A DNA stretch of 64,000 nucleotides from Octopus vulgaris. Taxonomy: Eukaryota. Each line of letters opens with the position of its first letter. Position 1 is the first letter of the stretch. Below, piece after piece: positions 1-6,000 of this stretch. A program made the position numbers. Where the stretch lies: assembly GCA_951406725.2 (NCBI GenBank), contig OX597827.1:1-64000 (forward strand), read 5' to 3'.

Positions 1-3000
1 TCTTCTTCTACCCCTTTTTTTTCTTTTTATTTTCTACCTCTTCTTTATCTTCTTCTTTTTCTTCCTCTTTTTTTCTTCTATTTCTACTTCTTTTTCTTCT
101 TTTTACTTTCTGCTTCGTCACTGGTCTCCCTCTTTTCCATTCTCTGCCAATTCTTCCTCTTATTCTCATTCTCATGCTCTTCCTGCTCCTTCTGCTGATA
201 GCCCCAGCTGCTCCTCCTCAGTCATTCTTTCCTTTGTCCTCCTCCTAAACCCCCCATCTCTCCTCCTCCTCTGCCCCTCCCCATCTCCTCCCCCCTCTCC
301 TACTTATTCTGCTTCCTCTTCTTCATCTTCTTCTACTTCTTCGTCTTCTTCTTCTTCTTCTTCTTCTTCTTCTTCTTCTTCATCTTCTTCTTCTCCTTCT
401 TCTTCCTACTTTTCTTCGTTTTCTTCTTCTTCTTCTTTTTTTCTTCTTCTTCTTCTTCGTTATCTTTCTTCTTTTTCTTCCTTTCATTCTGAAGTCACGG
501 TGTTTGATGTCGTATCACAAATGTTTTCCATATAATCTATTTTACACTTTCTTTACTGCTATAGACATCTTTGGAAGAACGACATTTCAACCATCAAAGA
601 AGGTTTATTCACGGGGCTTTCGAATTTAAAGTCATTGTAAGTTCGTTTAATTTCTCGATACTATTTTCCGAAAGTAATAATTGATGCTGATATTAAGCTC
701 ACAAATGTATAAAATTTCAGACTGTACCGGGCAAAATCAATTCAAATTTGTAGAATGAACACGATTTAGGAAGAAACAAAGAAAATCGGGGAGAGCGAGA
801 CAATGTGAAAGAAAGAGAGAATTTGAAAGAGAAAGTGAAATGATAGGAAAAATATAATGTTCTTTTATTGTATTTGCTTTGTTTCAATTCGCATCTCAAT
901 AACTCATTTTTGTTCCCCAAATTTCAATGATTTTGATATGAATCTGTATTAGAAATGGTAACGTTTGAGAGTTTACATGTTTGCATCAGATATTTTTAGC
1001 TGAAGTATATGTGTATGTTCATATATAAGTGTAGTTCTGTGTGAAATGTGACTATATTATTCCTTTATTTTATATTTTTCATCCTCCTCCATTTCCTAAT
1101 TCAATATTCTGCTTCGTGTTTCGATATTATCATTCAACTTCGAATTTTGTCATTCACTTCACGTTATTTATGTAATAGAGCAACTGAAGTGGAAGCGGAA
1201 AATATATATTCAAATAATATTGTCACATACATTCTATCTGTAAACCTGAAATACTTACTGTACTTGTAAGCTGGAATATTTGGCCTGATACAATTAAACT
1301 GCAGATATATTTCCTGTGTGTTTTCTAATATGCTTGTGACAATGAAGCGATATGAAATAAATAATCTCTCTCACCATATTTCCACAAGCGTGAGTGGGAA
1401 TATGTGTGATGTGAGTGTGTATACCGCATTCCGTCTTCTTCTTCTTCTTCTTCTTCTTCTTCTTCTTCTTCTCCTCCTCCTCCTCCTCCTCCTCCTCCTC
1501 CTTCTTTTTCTTCCTTTCATTCTGAAGTCACAGTGTTTGATGTCGTATCACAAATGTTTTCCATATAATCTATTTTACACTTTCTTTACTGCTATAGACA
1601 TCTTTGGAGGAACGACATTTCAACCATCAACGAAGGTGCATTCACGGGGCTTTCGAATTTAAAAGAATTGTAAGTTCATTTAATTTCTCGATACTATTTT
1701 CCAAAAGTAATAATTGATGCTGATATTAAGCTCACAAATGTATAAAATTTCAGACTGTACCGGGCAAAATCAATTCAAATTTGTAGAATGAACACGATTT
1801 AGGAAGAAACAAAGAAAATCGGGGAGAGCGAGACAATGTGAAAGAAAGAGAGAATTTGAGAGAGAAAGTGAAATAATAGGAAAAATATAACGTTCTTTTA
1901 TTGTATTTGCTTTGTTTCAATTCGCATCTCAATAACTCATTTTTGTTCCCCAAATTTCAATGATTTTGATATGAATCTGTATTAGAAATGGTAACGTTTG
2001 AGAGTTTACATGTTTGCATCAGATATTTTTAGCTGAAGTATATGTGTATGTTCATATATAAGTGTAGTTCTGTGTGAAATGTGACTATATTATTCCTTTA
2101 TTTTATATTTTTCATCCTCCTCCATTTCCTAATTCAATATTCTCCTTCGTGTTTCGATATTATCATTCAACTTCGAATTTTGTCATTCACTTCACGTTAT
2201 TTATGTAATAGAGCAACTGAAGTGGAAGCGGAAAATATATATTCAAATAATATTGTCACATACATTCTATCTGTAAACCTGAAATACTTACTGTACTTGT
2301 AAGCTGGAATATTTGGCCTGATACAATTAAACTGCAGATATATTTCCTGTGTGTTTTCTAATATGCTTGTGACAATGAAGCGATATGAAATAAATAATCT
2401 CTCTAACCATATTTCCACAAGGGTGAGTGGGAATATGTGTGATGTGAGTGTGCATACCGCATTCCGTCTTCTTCTTCTTCTTCTTCTTCTTCTTCTTCTT
2501 CTTCTTCTTCTTCTTCTTCTTCTTCTTCTTCTTCTTCTCCTCCACCTCCTCCTTCTTCTTTTTCTTCCGTTCATTCTGAAGTCACAGTGTTTGATGTCGT
2601 ATCACAAATGTTTTCCATATAATCTATTTCACGCTTTCTTTACTGCTATAGAAATCTTTGGGACAACAACATTGCAACCATCAAAGAAGGTACATTCATG
2701 GGGCTTTCGAATTTAAAAGAATTGTAAGTTCGTTTAATTTCTTGATACTATTTTCCGAAAGTAATAATTGATGCTGATATTAAGCTCACAAATGTATAAA
2801 TTTTCAGACTGTTCCGGGCAAAATCAATTCAAATTTGAAGAATGAACACGATTTAGGAAGATACAAAGAAAATCGGAGAGAGCGAGACAATTTGAAAGAA
2901 AGAGAGAATTTGAGAGAGAAAGTGAAATAATAGGAAAAATATAATGTTCTTTTATTGTATTTACTTTGTTTCAATTCGCATCTCAATAACTCATTTTTGT

Positions 3001-6000
3001 TCCCCAAATTTCAATGATTTTGATATGAATCTGTATTAGAAATGGTAACGTTTGTGAGTTTACATGTTTGCATCAGATATTTTTAGCTGAAGTATATGTG
3101 TATGTTCATATATAAGTGTAGTTATGTGTGAAATGTGACTATATTATTCCTTTATTTTATATTTTGCATCCTCCTCCATTTCCTAATTCAATATTCTGCT
3201 TCGTGTTTCGATATTATCATTCAACTTCGAATTTTGTCATTCACTTCACGTTATTTATGTAATAGAGCAACTGAAGTGGAAGCGGAAAATATATATTCGA
3301 ATAATATTGTCACATACATTCTATCTGTAAACCTGAAATACTTACTGTACTTGTAAGCTGGAATATATGGCCTGATACAATTAAACTGCAGATATATTTC
3401 CTGTGTGTTTTCTAATATGCTTGTGACAATGAAGCGATATAAAATGAATAATCTCTCTGATCATGTTTCCACAAGGGTGAGTGGGATATGTGTGATGTGA
3501 GTGTGCATACCGCATTCCGTCTTCTTCTTCTTCTTCTTCTTCTTCTTCTTCTTCTTCTTCTTCTTCTTCTTCTTCTTCTTCTTCTTCTTCTTCTTCTTCT
3601 TCTTCTCTCCTCCTCCTCCTCCTCCTCCTCCTCGTCCTTCTTCTTTTTCTTCCTTTCATTCTGAAGTCACAGTGTTTGATGTCGTATCACAAATGTTTTC
3701 CATATAATCTATTTCACGCTTTCTTTACTGCTATAGAGATCTTTCGGACAACAATATTGCAACCATCAACGAAGGTGCATTCACGGGGCTTTCGAATTTA
3801 AAAGAATTGTAAGTTCGTTTAATTTCTTGATACTATTTTCCGAAAGTAATAATTGATGCTGATATTAAGCTCACAAATGTATAAATTTTCAGACTGTTCC
3901 GGGCAAAATCAATTCAAATTTGTAGAATGAACACGATTTAGGAAGATACAAAGAAAATCGGAGAGAGCGAGACAATGTGAAAGAAAGAGAGAGAATTTGA
4001 GAGAGAAAGTGAAATAATAGGAAAAATATAATGTTCCTTTATTGTATTTGCTTTGTTTCAATTCGCATCTCAATAACTCATTTTTTTTCCCCAGATTTCA
4101 ATGATTTTGATATGAATCTGTATTAGAAATGGCAACGTTTGAGAGTTTACATGTCTGCACCAAATATTTTTAGCTGAAGTATATGTGTATGTTCATATAT
4201 AAATGTAGTTCCGTGTGAAATGTGACTATATAATTCCTTTATTTTATATTTTGCATCCACCTCCATTTCGTATTTCAATATTCTCTTTCGTGTTTCGATT
4301 TTGTCATTCAACTTTTTTCTTCTTCTTCTTCTTCTTCTTTTTCTCTTTACTCCTTCTTCTTCCTCTTCTTTCTTTTCTTCTTCTTGTTCTTCTTCTGCTT
4401 CTGCTTCTTCTTATCTTTCTCTTCCTCCACCTTCTTTTTCTTCTACTTCTCCCTCTTTTTCTCCTTATTCTTGTTCGTCTTTGCCTTCTCCTCCCCCTTC
4501 TTCTTTTTCTTTTCCTTCTCGGCTTCCTCCTCCTCCCCTTCTTGTTGTTGTTGTTGTTCTTCTTCCCCCCTCCACTTCTTCATATTCTTCCTATTTCCTC
4601 CTTTTCTTTCTTCTTTTCTTCATTTTCTTCTTCTTCTTCTTCTTCTTTGTTTTCCTCTTCTTCGTATTGTTTTACCAACTTTTCATTTTTTACTTTTCTT
4701 TTTTACTTTATTCTGTCCGTGTTGTTATTGTTGCTTTTGTGGTTGTTCTTCTTCTTTTTCTTTTTTTCTTCTCCTTCTTCAATTTCTTCGTCTTCTACTT
4801 CTTTTTCTTCTTATTCTTCTATGTTAGCACTGAGGACATCCTCAATTAAATGAATATTTGCGGCCACTCCAAGTTCTTGTCATGTTGTGTAGTGGACACT
4901 AAGGACATGATTCCCTCTATGCATCTGTTGACATCGATTTTTCTGGGGTATAATGTAATGAGATTGTCTGTGAAAAGTGAAGTGTAGTTCTGTGAGGTCA
5001 ACACGCGTGATCCGTGTCTCGTTCTTAGACTATATATTCTGCCTCGCTAGATCACCGATGCTTAGACCACCCACCATCACTTCAGCAGTAAATAAATGCA
5101 CCACTGAGCGCTGGTGTGGCTGGACCCTACCCACCCAACACCCTGAGAACAACAATTAGGAGAAAGGAATGATTGCACATGCAGTAGGAGCTAGCGTAAG
5201 AACCACCTTGAAGAATCACAGACTAAAGTATAACTAGTTTAGTTTAGTTTAAATTTTTGGCTCAAAAAGCAAAATCAAGGCCATGTAGGGGGACAGGGAG
5301 TTATGTACAGGGAGTTATGTACAGGGAGGGTGGTCATACAAAGAGTTCAGACTATTTCTGGTGAAGAGAGACTTTGAACCGAACGGTCATCGGCATCTTC
5401 ACTATCTCGTCCAGCAGCTTATTCCACGGATCCGCAACCCGGACGGAGAAAGCCCCTCTCCTTCGATTGAAATCAAATCGTCGTAGATAGAGCTTTCCGG
5501 AGTGACCCTGCAGCCGACGCTCTGGGGCAGGTGTGAAGAACAGCTCTTTCGAGAGGTTACACTTTCCGCTATGATGTAGTGAGCAAGAATGAGATCACCA
5601 CGGCGTCGTCGTTTTTCGAGAGAACAAAGGTCGAGCGTCTTCAGTCTTCCTTCATAAGATAAATGCTTGAAACAATACATGTAAGTTCAAGGTGCAGCCA
5701 TTTGTGTCGGTGTGTCTGGAGATATTGCTGACCTCTTCATGACCTGGTGGATCAGAAAACCCAAGCAATCATTGGCAAAACAGTCCACAACTCTTCTACT
5801 TTACTGTAGGTATATAGATGGCAATAATATCACAGTTAAGACCAGATCTAATAACGGTAATGTAGAAACTGAGAGGAACATAATGGAGAGCATCCAGCAA
5901 GTAGCCAACTCCATCCACCAAAGTATCAAGGTGACTATAGATTATCCCACTAGGCACCCCAACAACAGTGCAACTCTTCCACTCCTATTACATGATTTAA

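What the first reader, a model, noticed from the sequence alone, without database searches (positions are those of the whole stretch)
565..3808. Tandem LRR exon cassettes diversifying at ligand-facing residues inside near-identical intron repeats
Seen in sequence: each ~1.05-kb unit carries one symmetric 72-nt exon. By hand count, exons 1 v 2 differ at 7 nt (1 synonymous), exons 2 v 3 at 9 nt (none synonymous) and exons 3 v 4 at 6 nt (1 synonymous). The flanking intron differs at only a few sites per 200 bp. Many changes sit on the xLxxNx beta-strand: HLWKND, HLWRND, NLWDNN, DLSDNN. Known: those x positions form the concave binding face of LRR solenoids such as VLRs and TLRs. Inference: diversifying selection plus an expandable cassette array. 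Because all exons are phase 2-2, copy-number change or exon skipping would give variable receptors, as expected for an immune or allorecognition system.
Basis: partly seen in the sequence, partly recalled or inferred. Interest (0 to 1): 0.85.

Follow-up and report, generated by a model that had tools for sequence, protein, structure and literature searches.

The report
Young tandem array of LRR exons
Four recent tandem copies of a small exon, each coding one leucine-rich repeat, differ mainly at the residues that would face a ligand; this pattern is known from other repeat-receptor genes and here suggests, but does not prove, selection for diversity.

Summary
Four 72-nt phase 2-2 exons lie at 565-636, 1598-1669, 2652-2723 and 3737-3808 (+). 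Each reads ctatag|exon|gtaagt and codes one typical 24-residue LRR. They sit in ~1.03-1.09 kb repeat units joined at a CTT/CCT microsatellite. Variable sites are 15 of 72 in the exon against 37 of 587 in the shared intron (p=1.6e-4). The exon still exceeds the most diverged intron stretch (17 of 182, p=0.014). Nine of the 15 lie in the five concave-face codons, and no scaffold residue changes.

dN/dS is above 1 in 6 of 6 pairs but not significantly (p=0.31). The excess sits on two branches only. The changes come in blocks, one reaching into the intron. Short-tract exchange with diverged LRR units is therefore a serious rival to point mutation plus positive selection.

The window holds no sign of expression, alternative cassette use, copy-number variation or immune function. 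The gene is incomplete: the only other LRR-like exon (7362-7433) lacks a donor and runs into a stop. Modular 72-nt phase-2 LRR exon arrays with concave-face selection are already described in brown algae. I file this as a new member of a known kind, of moderate interest.

The parts
1..480 (+). CT-rich low-complexity tract upstream of the array. It reaches the window's left edge and shows no unit homology.
   Evidence: (period-3 CTT array at 303-480)
481..1433 (+). Repeat unit 1: 84 nt of upstream intron, exon 1, and 797 nt of downstream intron.
   Evidence: (98.2% identical to unit 2 over 953 nt)
565..636 (+). LRR exon 1 (HLWKNDISTIKEGLFTGLSNLKS), 72 nt, phase 2-2.
   Evidence: (LRR_8 E=1.4e-3)
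1434..1513 (+). (CTT)n/(CCT)n microsatellite at the unit 1/2 junction, 80 nt.
1598..1669 (+). LRR exon 2 (HLWRNDISTINEGAFTGLSNLKE).
   Evidence: (E=2.2e-4)
2467..2567 (+). Microsatellite at the unit 2/3 junction, 101 nt.
2652..2723 (+). LRR exon 3 (NLWDNNIATIKEGTFMGLSNLKE).
   Evidence: E=1.7e-4
3520..3652 (+). Microsatellite at the unit 3/4 junction, 133 nt.
3737..3808 (+). LRR exon 4 (DLSDNNIATINEGAFTGLSNLKE).
   Evidence: (E=3.4e-5)
3809..4314 (+). Downstream intron part of unit 4, cut short about 290 nt before where units 1-3 end. Its last 182 nt (4133-4314) carry 13 of unit 4's 18 private changes.
4317..4820 (+). Degenerate CT-rich low-complexity tract that closes the array.
7020..7043 (+). 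Possible relic of an LRR exon: NDISTIDE, differing from exons 1/2 mostly at third codon positions. It lies in a short open frame (6981-7052) that ends in a stop, behind a cag acceptor in the wrong phase.
   Evidence: (E=0.0091 among 2558 open frames)
7362..7436 (+). Probable old LRR exon (YLHNNLIEKYEDGAFLFLTSIVEI*). It has a good acceptor (tctctttttcag) and starts with A, so TT|A = Leu is kept. At the 72-nt mark it reads AT|ATAAGC instead of a GT donor, and an in-frame TAA follows.
   Evidence: full scaffold score; 32-37 of 72 nt identical to the array exons; AATAAA at 7524. Against: (no Pfam match at E<=10).

Best explanation
This is a young four-copy tandem duplication of one exon-plus-intron unit inside an LRR gene. 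The LRRs are of the 'typical' extracellular animal type. The surrounding genome is rich in simple repeats and retroelements.

Shown:
- Each unit carries one 72-nt phase 2-2 exon that codes one turn of an LRR solenoid.
- The units join at a CTT/CCT microsatellite.
- Long CT-rich tracts bound the array on both sides.
- The exon copies differ several-fold more than the surrounding intron.
- Almost all exon changes replace amino acids. Most lie in the five codons of the beta-strand x positions, and the hydrophobic/Asn scaffold never changes.

Inferred:
- The array grew by unequal crossing-over or slippage between the flanking CT-rich tracts.
- The exon differences arose largely as blocks, either by short-tract exchange with more diverged LRR units or by multi-nucleotide changes.
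- Selection kept these differences because adjacent turns of one solenoid with different concave-face residues give a new binding surface. On this view the scaffold and splice sites are under purifying selection.
- Because every exon starts with A and ends with TT, any number of the cassettes would splice in frame. Whether the cell uses that is unknown.

The confidence given is for the whole statement, including the role of selection. The structural part alone (a real tandem LRR exon array with exon-specific excess change) I hold at about 0.9.
For: Structure: four units, canonical AG/GT sites, equal phase; junction microsatellites of 80, 101 and 133 nt; flanking CT-rich tracts.

LRR identity: (LRR_8 for 4 of 4 single exons). 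(single exons match the repeats of LRRC4C, IGFALS, LRIG1, TLR13, LGR4, LRRC15, LINGO1, FLRT, VLR and Slit2).

Excess exon change:
- 15 of 72 against 37 of 587 variable sites, p=1.6e-4.
- Nonsynonymous 13 of 54 against intron, p=8.5e-5.
- Without CpG sites, p=8e-4.
- Against the most diverged intron stretch, p=0.014.

Placement of the changes:
- 9 variable residues, none on the 8 scaffold positions, P=0.0087.
- Concave positions vary in 5 of 5 cases against 4 of 11 other x positions, p=0.029.
- 9 of 15 nucleotides in the concave codons vary against 6 of 57 in the rest of the exon, p=1.7e-4.
- The rest of the exon is not different from intron, p=0.17.

dN/dS is 1.3-15 in 6 of 6 pairs.

History: intron site patterns are tree-like. 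There are 8 (12|34) sites, 1 (13|24) site and 0 (14|23) sites. That argues for a simple recent duplication history rather than heavy homogenisation of the intron.
Against: - dN/dS above 1 is not significant within the exons (13 of 54 against 2 of 15, p=0.31).
- The excess is significant only on unit 1's private branch (4 against 3, p=0.0036) and the (12|34) branch (4 against 8, p=0.033). It is absent from the private branches of units 2, 3 and 4.
- The adjacent pair 3v4 is not significant (p=0.085).
- The changes are clustered in blocks. Seven of 13 (12|34) sites fall in 45 columns running from intron -22 to exon +23 (P=5e-4). Five of 8 unit-1 private sites fall in 29 columns (P=5.6e-4).
- Exon positions 67-69 change as three adjacent bases.
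- Exons 2 and 4 differ at 8 of 23 then 0 of 49 positions.
- The edge of unit 4 is more diverged (13 of its 18 private changes in the last 182 columns, p=1e-4). The interior intron may therefore be partly homogenised and understate the array's age.
- There is no evidence of transcription.
- The downstream LRR-like exon has no donor and no Pfam match.
- All p-values are nominal, on a region picked because it looked unusual.
Confidence: 0.45

Rival explanations
1. Mosaic by short-tract gene conversion alone. Patches from more diverged paralogous LRR units, in the same gene upstream of the window or in other loci, were copied into a young array. Exons are the most conserved landmarks among paralogues, so exchange ends there. 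This raises exon divergence without any positive selection. The scaffold is kept and the x positions differ simply because the donors are working LRRs.
For: - Block clustering of the changes, with one block reaching 22 nt into the upstream intron.
- Three adjacent changed bases at exon positions 67-69, and pairs at 41-42 and 11/13.
- (13|24) homoplasy at exon positions 34 and 41 against an otherwise (12|34) tree.
- Exons 2 and 4 are identical over 49 nt but differ at 8 of 23.
- dN/dS is not significantly above 1.
Against: - No donor is present in the window. The only other LRR-like pieces (7020-7043, 7362-7433) do not carry these blocks.
- Only 2 of 15 variable sites are synonymous, where diverged donors would be expected to bring several. 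The power of this point is low.
- The concentration in exactly the five concave codons is not required by this model.
Confidence: 0.25
2. Old array under concerted evolution. The four repeats are old and functionally distinct. Unequal exchange keeps homogenising the units, and purifying selection stops the exons from being overwritten, so only the introns look young.
For: - The outer edge of unit 4 is much more diverged than the interior (13 of 18 private changes in the last 182 columns; 17 of 182 variable against 20 of 405), as at the edges of homogenised arrays.
- Junction microsatellites differ in length.
Against: - Intron site patterns are nearly all compatible with one tree: 1 incompatible site among 37 variable.
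- Synonymous exon divergence (2 of 15) is not above the intron level (p=0.25).
- The exon still exceeds the diverged edge (p=0.014).
Confidence: 0.12
3. The array is an expandable cassette set of an immune or allorecognition receptor. Exon skipping, alternative cassette choice or copy-number change gives variable receptors.
For: - Equal length and phase, and the invariant TT|A junction codon, make every combination in frame.
- Variation is on the concave face.
- There is precedent in brown-algal ROCO genes: 72-bp phase-2 LRR exons, positive selection on the concave face and several splice variants (passages of PMC11378527 and of PMC3341825).
Against: - Nothing in the window bears on expression, splicing, polymorphism or function.
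- Only four cassettes are present.
- No signal peptide, cap, membrane anchor or signalling domain was found in the window. Short exons could not be scanned.
- A solenoid normally needs many repeats at once, so the cassettes may all simply be included constitutively.
Confidence: 0.1
4. Non-functional remnant. The array is part of a dying LRR locus in a repeat-rich desert, and its pattern is a leftover of earlier exchange.
For: - Downstream LRR-like pieces are broken: a stop at 7050-7052, and no donor plus a stop at 7434-7436.
- The other 59 kb of the window show only simple repeats and retroelement frames.
Against: - Four of 4 exons keep frame, both splice sites and all 8 scaffold residues despite 15 variable sites.
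- Neutral decay cannot make the exon diverge faster than the intron.
Confidence: 0.1
5. Assembly artefact: a falsely expanded repeat, or haplotypes placed in tandem.
For: - None directly.
- Unit-to-unit divergence of 1-5% is in the range of heterozygosity in some invertebrates (recalled, not tested).
Against: - The four copies all differ, by 1.1-4.8% in the intron and by microsatellite lengths of 80, 101 and 133 nt.
- The window has no N.
- Artefactual copies are usually identical.
Confidence: 0.04

Closest known systems
LRR exon arrays of brown-algal ROCO genes (Ectocarpus, Saccharina). I read passages of PMC3341825 and PMC11378527.
   Same: - One LRR per 72-nt exon, phase 2, in tandem runs.
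- Exon duplication and shuffling.
- Positively selected sites on the concave face.
- Broken 'inactivated' LRR exons nearby.
- In-frame splice variants with different LRR sets.
   Different: - There the exon reads GxxPxxLxxxxxLxxLxLxxNxLx, so the repeat is cut at a different point.
- The LRRs belong to cytoplasmic LRR-ROC-COR GTPases of stramenopiles.
- Here the repeat is the animal 'typical' type (xLxxNxIxxIxxGxFxGLxNLxx).
- No ROC-COR was seen, only four copies are present, and selection is not formally shown.
90-bp LRR exon arrays of Tetrahymena. I read passages of PMC6564038.
   Same: - Runs of equal-length LRR exons separated by phase-2 introns.
- A shared junction codon.
- Repeated exon-intron units attributed to unequal crossing-over.
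- Young, species-specific genes.
   Different: - 90-nt exons.
- A ciliate genome.
- Tens of thousands of exons, with a LINE-like element implicated.
Conserved exon-modular LRR genes of animals: gonadotropin/LGR receptors and Slit. I read passages of PMC11378527 and PMC6642158. The 72-nt size of Slit and LGR exons is my recollection.
   Same: - One LRR per small in-phase exon (phase 2 in the gonadotropin receptors).
- The typical extracellular LRR type.
- LGR4 is among the best single-exon matches in the PDB.
   Different: - Those repeats are old and conserved and sit in unrelated introns.
- Here the units are 94-98% identical duplicates with fast-changing exons.
- No 7TM, EGF or cap domain was found in the window.
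Lamprey variable lymphocyte receptors (from my own knowledge; VLR chains appear among the hits).
   Same: LRR cassettes whose concave beta-strand x positions carry the diversity.
   Different: VLR cassettes are not spliced exons. They are copied somatically into an incomplete gene. Here each cassette has canonical splice sites, and nothing points to somatic assembly.
Arthropod Dscam1 exon clusters (search listings of PMC4835542 and PMC3364881 only; the rest is my own knowledge).
   Same: Tandem arrays of duplicated exons within one gene as a source of receptor diversity.
   Different: Those are Ig-domain exons used one at a time by mutually exclusive splicing. LRR exons of 72 nt can be added or dropped freely, and no selector or docking element was looked for here.

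Membership tests
Leucine-rich repeat, 'typical' extracellular type (Pfam LRR_8) | 24-residue period with the scaffold LxLxxNx(I/L)xx(I/L)xxxxFxxLxxL | tested here: met
   Four of 4 exons carry all scaffold residues, counting the split-codon Leu.
Leucine-rich repeat, 'typical' extracellular type (Pfam LRR_8) | Profile score at or above Pfam's curated cut-off (27 bits) | tested here: inconclusive
Single exons score 18.8-24.0 bits (E 3.4e-5 to 1.4e-3) over 22 of the model's 61 positions.
Leucine-rich repeat, 'typical' extracellular type (Pfam LRR_8) | Cysteine-rich N- and C-terminal caps, signal peptide or anchor | tested here: inconclusive
   None appears among 20 long open frames scanned with Pfam. 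Short exons were not scannable, and the gene's 5' part is outside the window.
Exon-modular LRR arrays with exon duplication and diversifying selection (brown-algal ROCO type, Tetrahymena type) | At least 3 consecutive equal-length LRR exons, with length a multiple of 3 and the same intron phase, in repeated exon-intron units | tested here: met
   Four exons of 72 nt, phase 2-2, in units 94-98% identical.
Exon-modular LRR arrays with exon duplication and diversifying selection (brown-algal ROCO type, Tetrahymena type) | Positive selection at solvent-exposed concave-face sites | tested here: inconclusive
   dN/dS is 1.3-15 in 6 of 6 pairs, and nonsynonymous change exceeds intron change (p=8.5e-5). 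But nonsynonymous against synonymous gives p=0.31, and the changes are block-like.
Exon-modular LRR arrays with exon duplication and diversifying selection (brown-algal ROCO type, Tetrahymena type) | Splice variants with different sets of LRR exons | not testable with these tools
   No transcript data are available.
ROCO proteins | ROC-COR GTPase module next to the LRRs | tested here: not met
   No such domain appears in the 20 long open frames scanned. The LRR type and the exon cut point also differ.
LGR / glycoprotein-hormone receptors; Slit | 7TM exon, or EGF/laminin-G exons with LRR caps, downstream of the LRR exons | tested here: inconclusive
   No non-repeat open frame of 110 aa or more on the + strand gave such a domain. 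The gene may continue beyond the window, or end at 7436.
VLR-type somatic cassette assembly | Donor cassettes without splice sites flanking an incomplete germline gene | tested here: not met
   All four cassettes have a canonical acceptor and a GTAAGT donor in one phase.
Dscam-type mutually exclusive exon cluster | Docking and selector RNA pairing; one exon chosen per transcript | not tested
   The introns are near-identical duplicates, so conservation gives no signal. No transcripts are available.

The most novel reading that the evidence does not exclude
An animal gene carries a germline array of interchangeable LRR cassette exons. The array expands by unequal exchange at a microsatellite. 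The cassettes are driven apart at their ligand-facing residues and are used in varying combinations by splicing. This would be an LRR-based counterpart of Dscam-type diversity, or a spliced analogue of VLR cassettes, serving non-self recognition.
Probability: 0.08. Interest if true: 0.8.

Novelty: new member of a known kind. Interest (0 to 1): 0.4.

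Why it matters
If the exon-specific excess reflects selection, this small array catches an LRR binding surface in the act of being remodelled. It would show exon duplication at a microsatellite followed within a few percent of neutral divergence by replacement of the concave-face residues. That would extend to an animal-type extracellular LRR a mode of receptor evolution documented in brown algae and ciliates. 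It would also give a compact locus for testing copy-number and splice variation. If the blocks turn out to be conversion patches, the array is instead a clean example of how exchange among LRR units mimics positive selection in exon-versus-intron comparisons.

Tried and rejected
I did not lengthen it by joining exons, so the gene's family and any annotated protein stay unknown.
- First LRR pattern search. It needed residues coded by the preceding exon and so missed even the four array exons. Exon-sized patterns replaced it.
- Profile of the four exons against 2558 open frames. It found only the array and one weak relic (E=0.0091). It missed exon 7362-7433, which rests on pattern and context only. 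Pfam gives nothing for that exon at E<=10.
- Similarity of 4821-8100 to the repeat unit. Only chance-level matches appeared (best E=0.067), including one at 6069-6097 that I do not accept.
It was replaced by 10 single open frames.
- Taxon. A search with the 664-aa retroelement frame gave 975 unnamed relatives, the best 52% identical. Rfam and tRNA scans found nothing. The organism is undetermined. I call it animal-like only from the LRR type and the reverse-transcriptase and endonuclease frames.
- The bacterial promoter/terminator scan of 1-600 is irrelevant to a eukaryotic locus.
- In one search the output row labelled '3 states' wrongly lumps the invariant columns. I did not use it.
- Literature. 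Searches found no description of a tandem array of near-identical LRR exon-intron units with fast-changing exons in an animal. That covers only the held library. Supplements were not open.
- No eukaryotic genome or read collection was available, so upstream units, paralogous donors, alleles and transcripts stayed unchecked.

Full report
What is there. On the + strand, four exons of exactly 72 nt lie at 565-636, 1598-1669, 2652-2723 and 3737-3808. Each is bounded by ctatag| and |gtaagt. The frame is 1 nt + 23 codons + 2 nt. Every exon starts with A and ends with TT, so each junction codon is TTA (Leu) whichever exons are joined. The peptides are HLWKNDISTIKEGLFTGLSNLKS, HLWRNDISTINEGAFTGLSNLKE, NLWDNNIATIKEGTFMGLSNLKE and DLSDNNIATINEGAFTGLSNLKE. 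With the split-codon Leu they fit LxLxxNxIxxIxxxxFxxLxxL.

LRR identity. Each exon searched alone matches Pfam LRR_8 at E 3.4e-5 to 1.4e-3, 18.8-24.0 bits. That is below the 27-bit cut-off because one exon covers only 22 of the 61 model positions. Exons 4 and 2 searched alone against the PDB align repeat by repeat with LRRC4C, IGFALS, LRIG1, TLR13, LGR4, LRRC15, LINGO1, FLRT, VLR and Slit2. This is the generic 'typical' extracellular LRR and does not pick out a family. The large protein database refuses queries under 40 aa, so the gene's family is unresolved.

The repeat units. blastn of unit 2 against the window finds four copies and no more: 481-1433 (98.2%), 1514-2466, 2570-3519 (96.4%) and 3653-4314 (94.4%). 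The units join at a (CTT)n/(CCT)n microsatellite of 80, 101 and 133 nt. Longer, degenerate CT-rich tracts flank the array at 1-480 and 4317-4820. Unit 4 lacks the last ~290 nt of the unit. The window's left edge lies inside the upstream CT-rich tract, so whether more units lie further upstream cannot be seen.

Exon against intron. Over the alignable intron the same pairs differ at 10 of 883, 25 of 882 and 23 of 587 sites. All six pairs show more exon than intron change, with ratios of 2.1 to 8.6. Fisher p<0.05 in 5 of 6; 3v4 gives p=0.085.

Among all four copies, 15 of 72 exon sites vary against 37 of 587 intron sites (p=1.6e-4). No 72-column intron window has more than 9 variable sites. The excess survives removal of CpG sites: 11 of 62 against 28 of 552, p=8e-4. 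It also survives comparison with the most diverged intron stretch, 17 of 182, p=0.014.

Excluded from these counts were the first 17 low-complexity alignment columns, the microsatellites, 2 gap columns, and for unit 4 everything past 4314.

Where the changes fall. By my reading of the codons, 13 of the 15 variable sites change the amino acid and 2 do not (exon positions 19 and 67).
- Nine residue positions vary and none is one of the 8 scaffold positions (P=0.0087).
- The five x positions of the beta-strand are register 2, 4, 5, 7 and 24. That these form the concave face is established knowledge that I recall, restated in passages of PMC3341825.
- All five of these vary, against 4 of 11 other x positions (p=0.029).
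- They hold 9 of the 15 variable nucleotides in 15 nt, against 6 in the other 57 nt (p=1.7e-4).
- Outside those five codons the exon does not differ from intron (p=0.17).

Is it positive selection? Nei-Gojobori dN/dS is 1.33, 1.62, 1.67, 1.69, 2.77 and 15 for the six pairs. It rests on only 0.2-2 synonymous differences. Nonsynonymous against synonymous variable sites (13 of 54 against 2 of 15) gives p=0.31. Against intron, nonsynonymous change is clearly higher (p=8.5e-5) and synonymous change is not (p=0.25). Relaxed constraint cannot push the exon above the neutral rate, so some exon-specific process is at work. Three findings complicate simple 'point mutation plus selection'.

1. The excess sits on two branches only: unit 1's private changes (4 exon against 3 intron, p=0.0036) and the split of units (1,2) from (3,4) (4 against 8, p=0.033). 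Units 2, 3 and 4 show no private excess.
2. The changes are block-like.
   - Seven of the 13 (12|34) sites lie in 45 columns running from 22 nt upstream of the exon to exon position 23 (P=5e-4).
   - Five of unit 1's 8 private sites lie in 29 columns (P=5.6e-4).
   - Exon positions 67-69 change as three adjacent bases.
   - Exons 2 and 4 differ at 8 of 23 then 0 of 49 positions.
   - Positions 34 and 41 group (1,3)|(2,4), against the tree.
3. Unit 4's private changes pile up in its last 182 columns (13 of 18, p=1e-4), as at the edge of an array whose interior is being homogenised.

These features fit short-tract exchange with more diverged LRR units. I cannot look for donors because no eukaryotic genome collection was available. 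On the other side, the intron patterns are almost perfectly tree-like, with 1 incompatible site among 37, and few exon changes are synonymous. Both points speak against heavy homogenisation or old exons.

My best reading combines the two processes. The array is young and was made by unequal exchange at the CT-rich tracts. Exon differences were introduced largely in blocks. Selection kept them because different concave-face residues in neighbouring turns change the binding surface.

The rest of the gene. A scan for open AG-72 nt-GT/GC windows with the LRR scaffold finds only the four exons at full score. Without the splice requirement, one more + strand candidate has the full score: 7362-7433, YLHNNLIEKYEDGAFLFLTSIVE. 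It has a good acceptor and an initial A. It is only 32-37 of 72 nt identical to the array exons. It reads AT|ATAAGC where the donor should be, and an in-frame TAA follows at 7434-7436, with an AATAAA at 7524. Pfam does not recognise it, and two hydrophobic chance hits on the - strand reach the same score. It is a probable, not proven, old LRR exon: either a dead one or a terminal one.

A second fragment at 7020-7043 codes NDISTIDE. It differs from exons 1/2 mostly at third codon positions and runs into a stop. It looks like a relic.

No other host domain was found. Of 20 long open frames scanned, 2 matched retroelement domains (RVT_1, and the endonuclease families), 1 gave a sub-threshold DUF hit, and 17 gave nothing. 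The remaining window is simple repeats and retroelement pieces.

Comparison with what is known. One LRR per 72-nt phase-2 exon is described for brown-algal ROCO genes. There it comes with tandem runs, exon shuffling, positively selected concave-face sites, inactivated LRR exons nearby and several splice variants (passages of PMC3341825, and of PMC11378527). Arrays of equal-length LRR exons (90 bp) with phase-2 introns, in repeated exon-intron units ascribed to unequal crossing-over, are described in Tetrahymena (passages of PMC6564038). In animals, exon modularity of LRRs is known for the gonadotropin receptors (phase 2), Slit and the NLRs (passages of PMC11378527, and of PMC6642158).

The present case shares the architecture and the pattern of change with these. 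It differs in LRR type and in where the exon cuts the repeat. It is also very young (94-98% identical units), small (four copies), and of unknown gene context. It is not a ROCO member, because no ROC-COR was found. It is not VLR-like in mechanism, because its cassettes have splice sites.

Searches of the held library turned up no animal example of near-identical LRR exon-intron units with fast-changing exons.

Verdict. Diversifying selection is plausible but unproven, and conversion is a strong rival. The immune or allorecognition and variable-receptor reading has no support in the window. I file it as a new member of a known kind, of moderate interest.

Noticed in passing
window 37240-38920 and 39829-41509 (- strand frames 37602-39596 and 40191-41510); also 37307-37537 and 39896-40126 against 41741-41511: Two direct copies, 99.9% identical over 1681 nt, of a retroelement-like coding region: a 664-aa frame and a 439-aa truncated copy. 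A 231-nt piece is repeated in inverted orientation at 99.6%. Pfam names no family for it. The protein has 975 unnamed relatives, the best 52% identical. Its cysteine-rich C-terminal part recurs in frames 25404-26363 and 28729-29646 by my reading of the translations.
   Followed up: partly
window 20956-28720 against 30072-33997: Several inverted duplicated blocks of 0.26-1.4 kb at 95-99% identity, for example 27493-28720 against 31300-30072 at 99.1% and 21527-22922 against 33916-32515 at 95.2%. They form a large imperfect palindrome around ~29.4 kb, full of TA/TACA-type simple repeats.
   Followed up: no
window 51932-54965 (+) and 44691-45362 (-): Non-LTR retrotransposon remains: a reverse-transcriptase frame (RVT_1, E=2e-32) with flanking open frames, and a separate endonuclease frame (Exo_endo_phos_2, E=3.5e-11).
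   Followed up: partly
whole window: Very high simple-repeat load: 153 Tandem Repeats Finder rows, including (TACA)75 at 13988-14289, (TA)169 at 34282-34618 and long TATACA/ACAT-type arrays at 21.8-25.1 kb and 31.4-33.6 kb. GC is 29-47%. No tRNA or Rfam family was found.
   Followed up: no
window 7020-7043 (+), within open frame 6981-7052: The short stretch coding NDISTIDE matches exons 1/2 at the protein level while differing mostly at third codon positions. It is followed by a stop and sits behind a cag acceptor in the wrong phase. It is a likely relic of an older LRR exon.
   Followed up: partly
window 1434-1513, 2467-2567, 3520-3652 (+): In the pre-mRNA the junction microsatellite would be a long (CUU)n/(CCU)n pyrimidine run ~85 nt upstream of each cassette's acceptor. 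From memory, such runs hold many UCUU motifs of the kind bound by polypyrimidine-tract-binding protein, which could bear on cassette inclusion. This was not tested.
   Followed up: no
window 19352-19749 against 50157-50525; 33982-34399 against 50744-51162; 36264-37227 against 56424-57408: Dispersed repeats of 0.4-1 kb at 81-88% identity, with no annotation.
   Followed up: no
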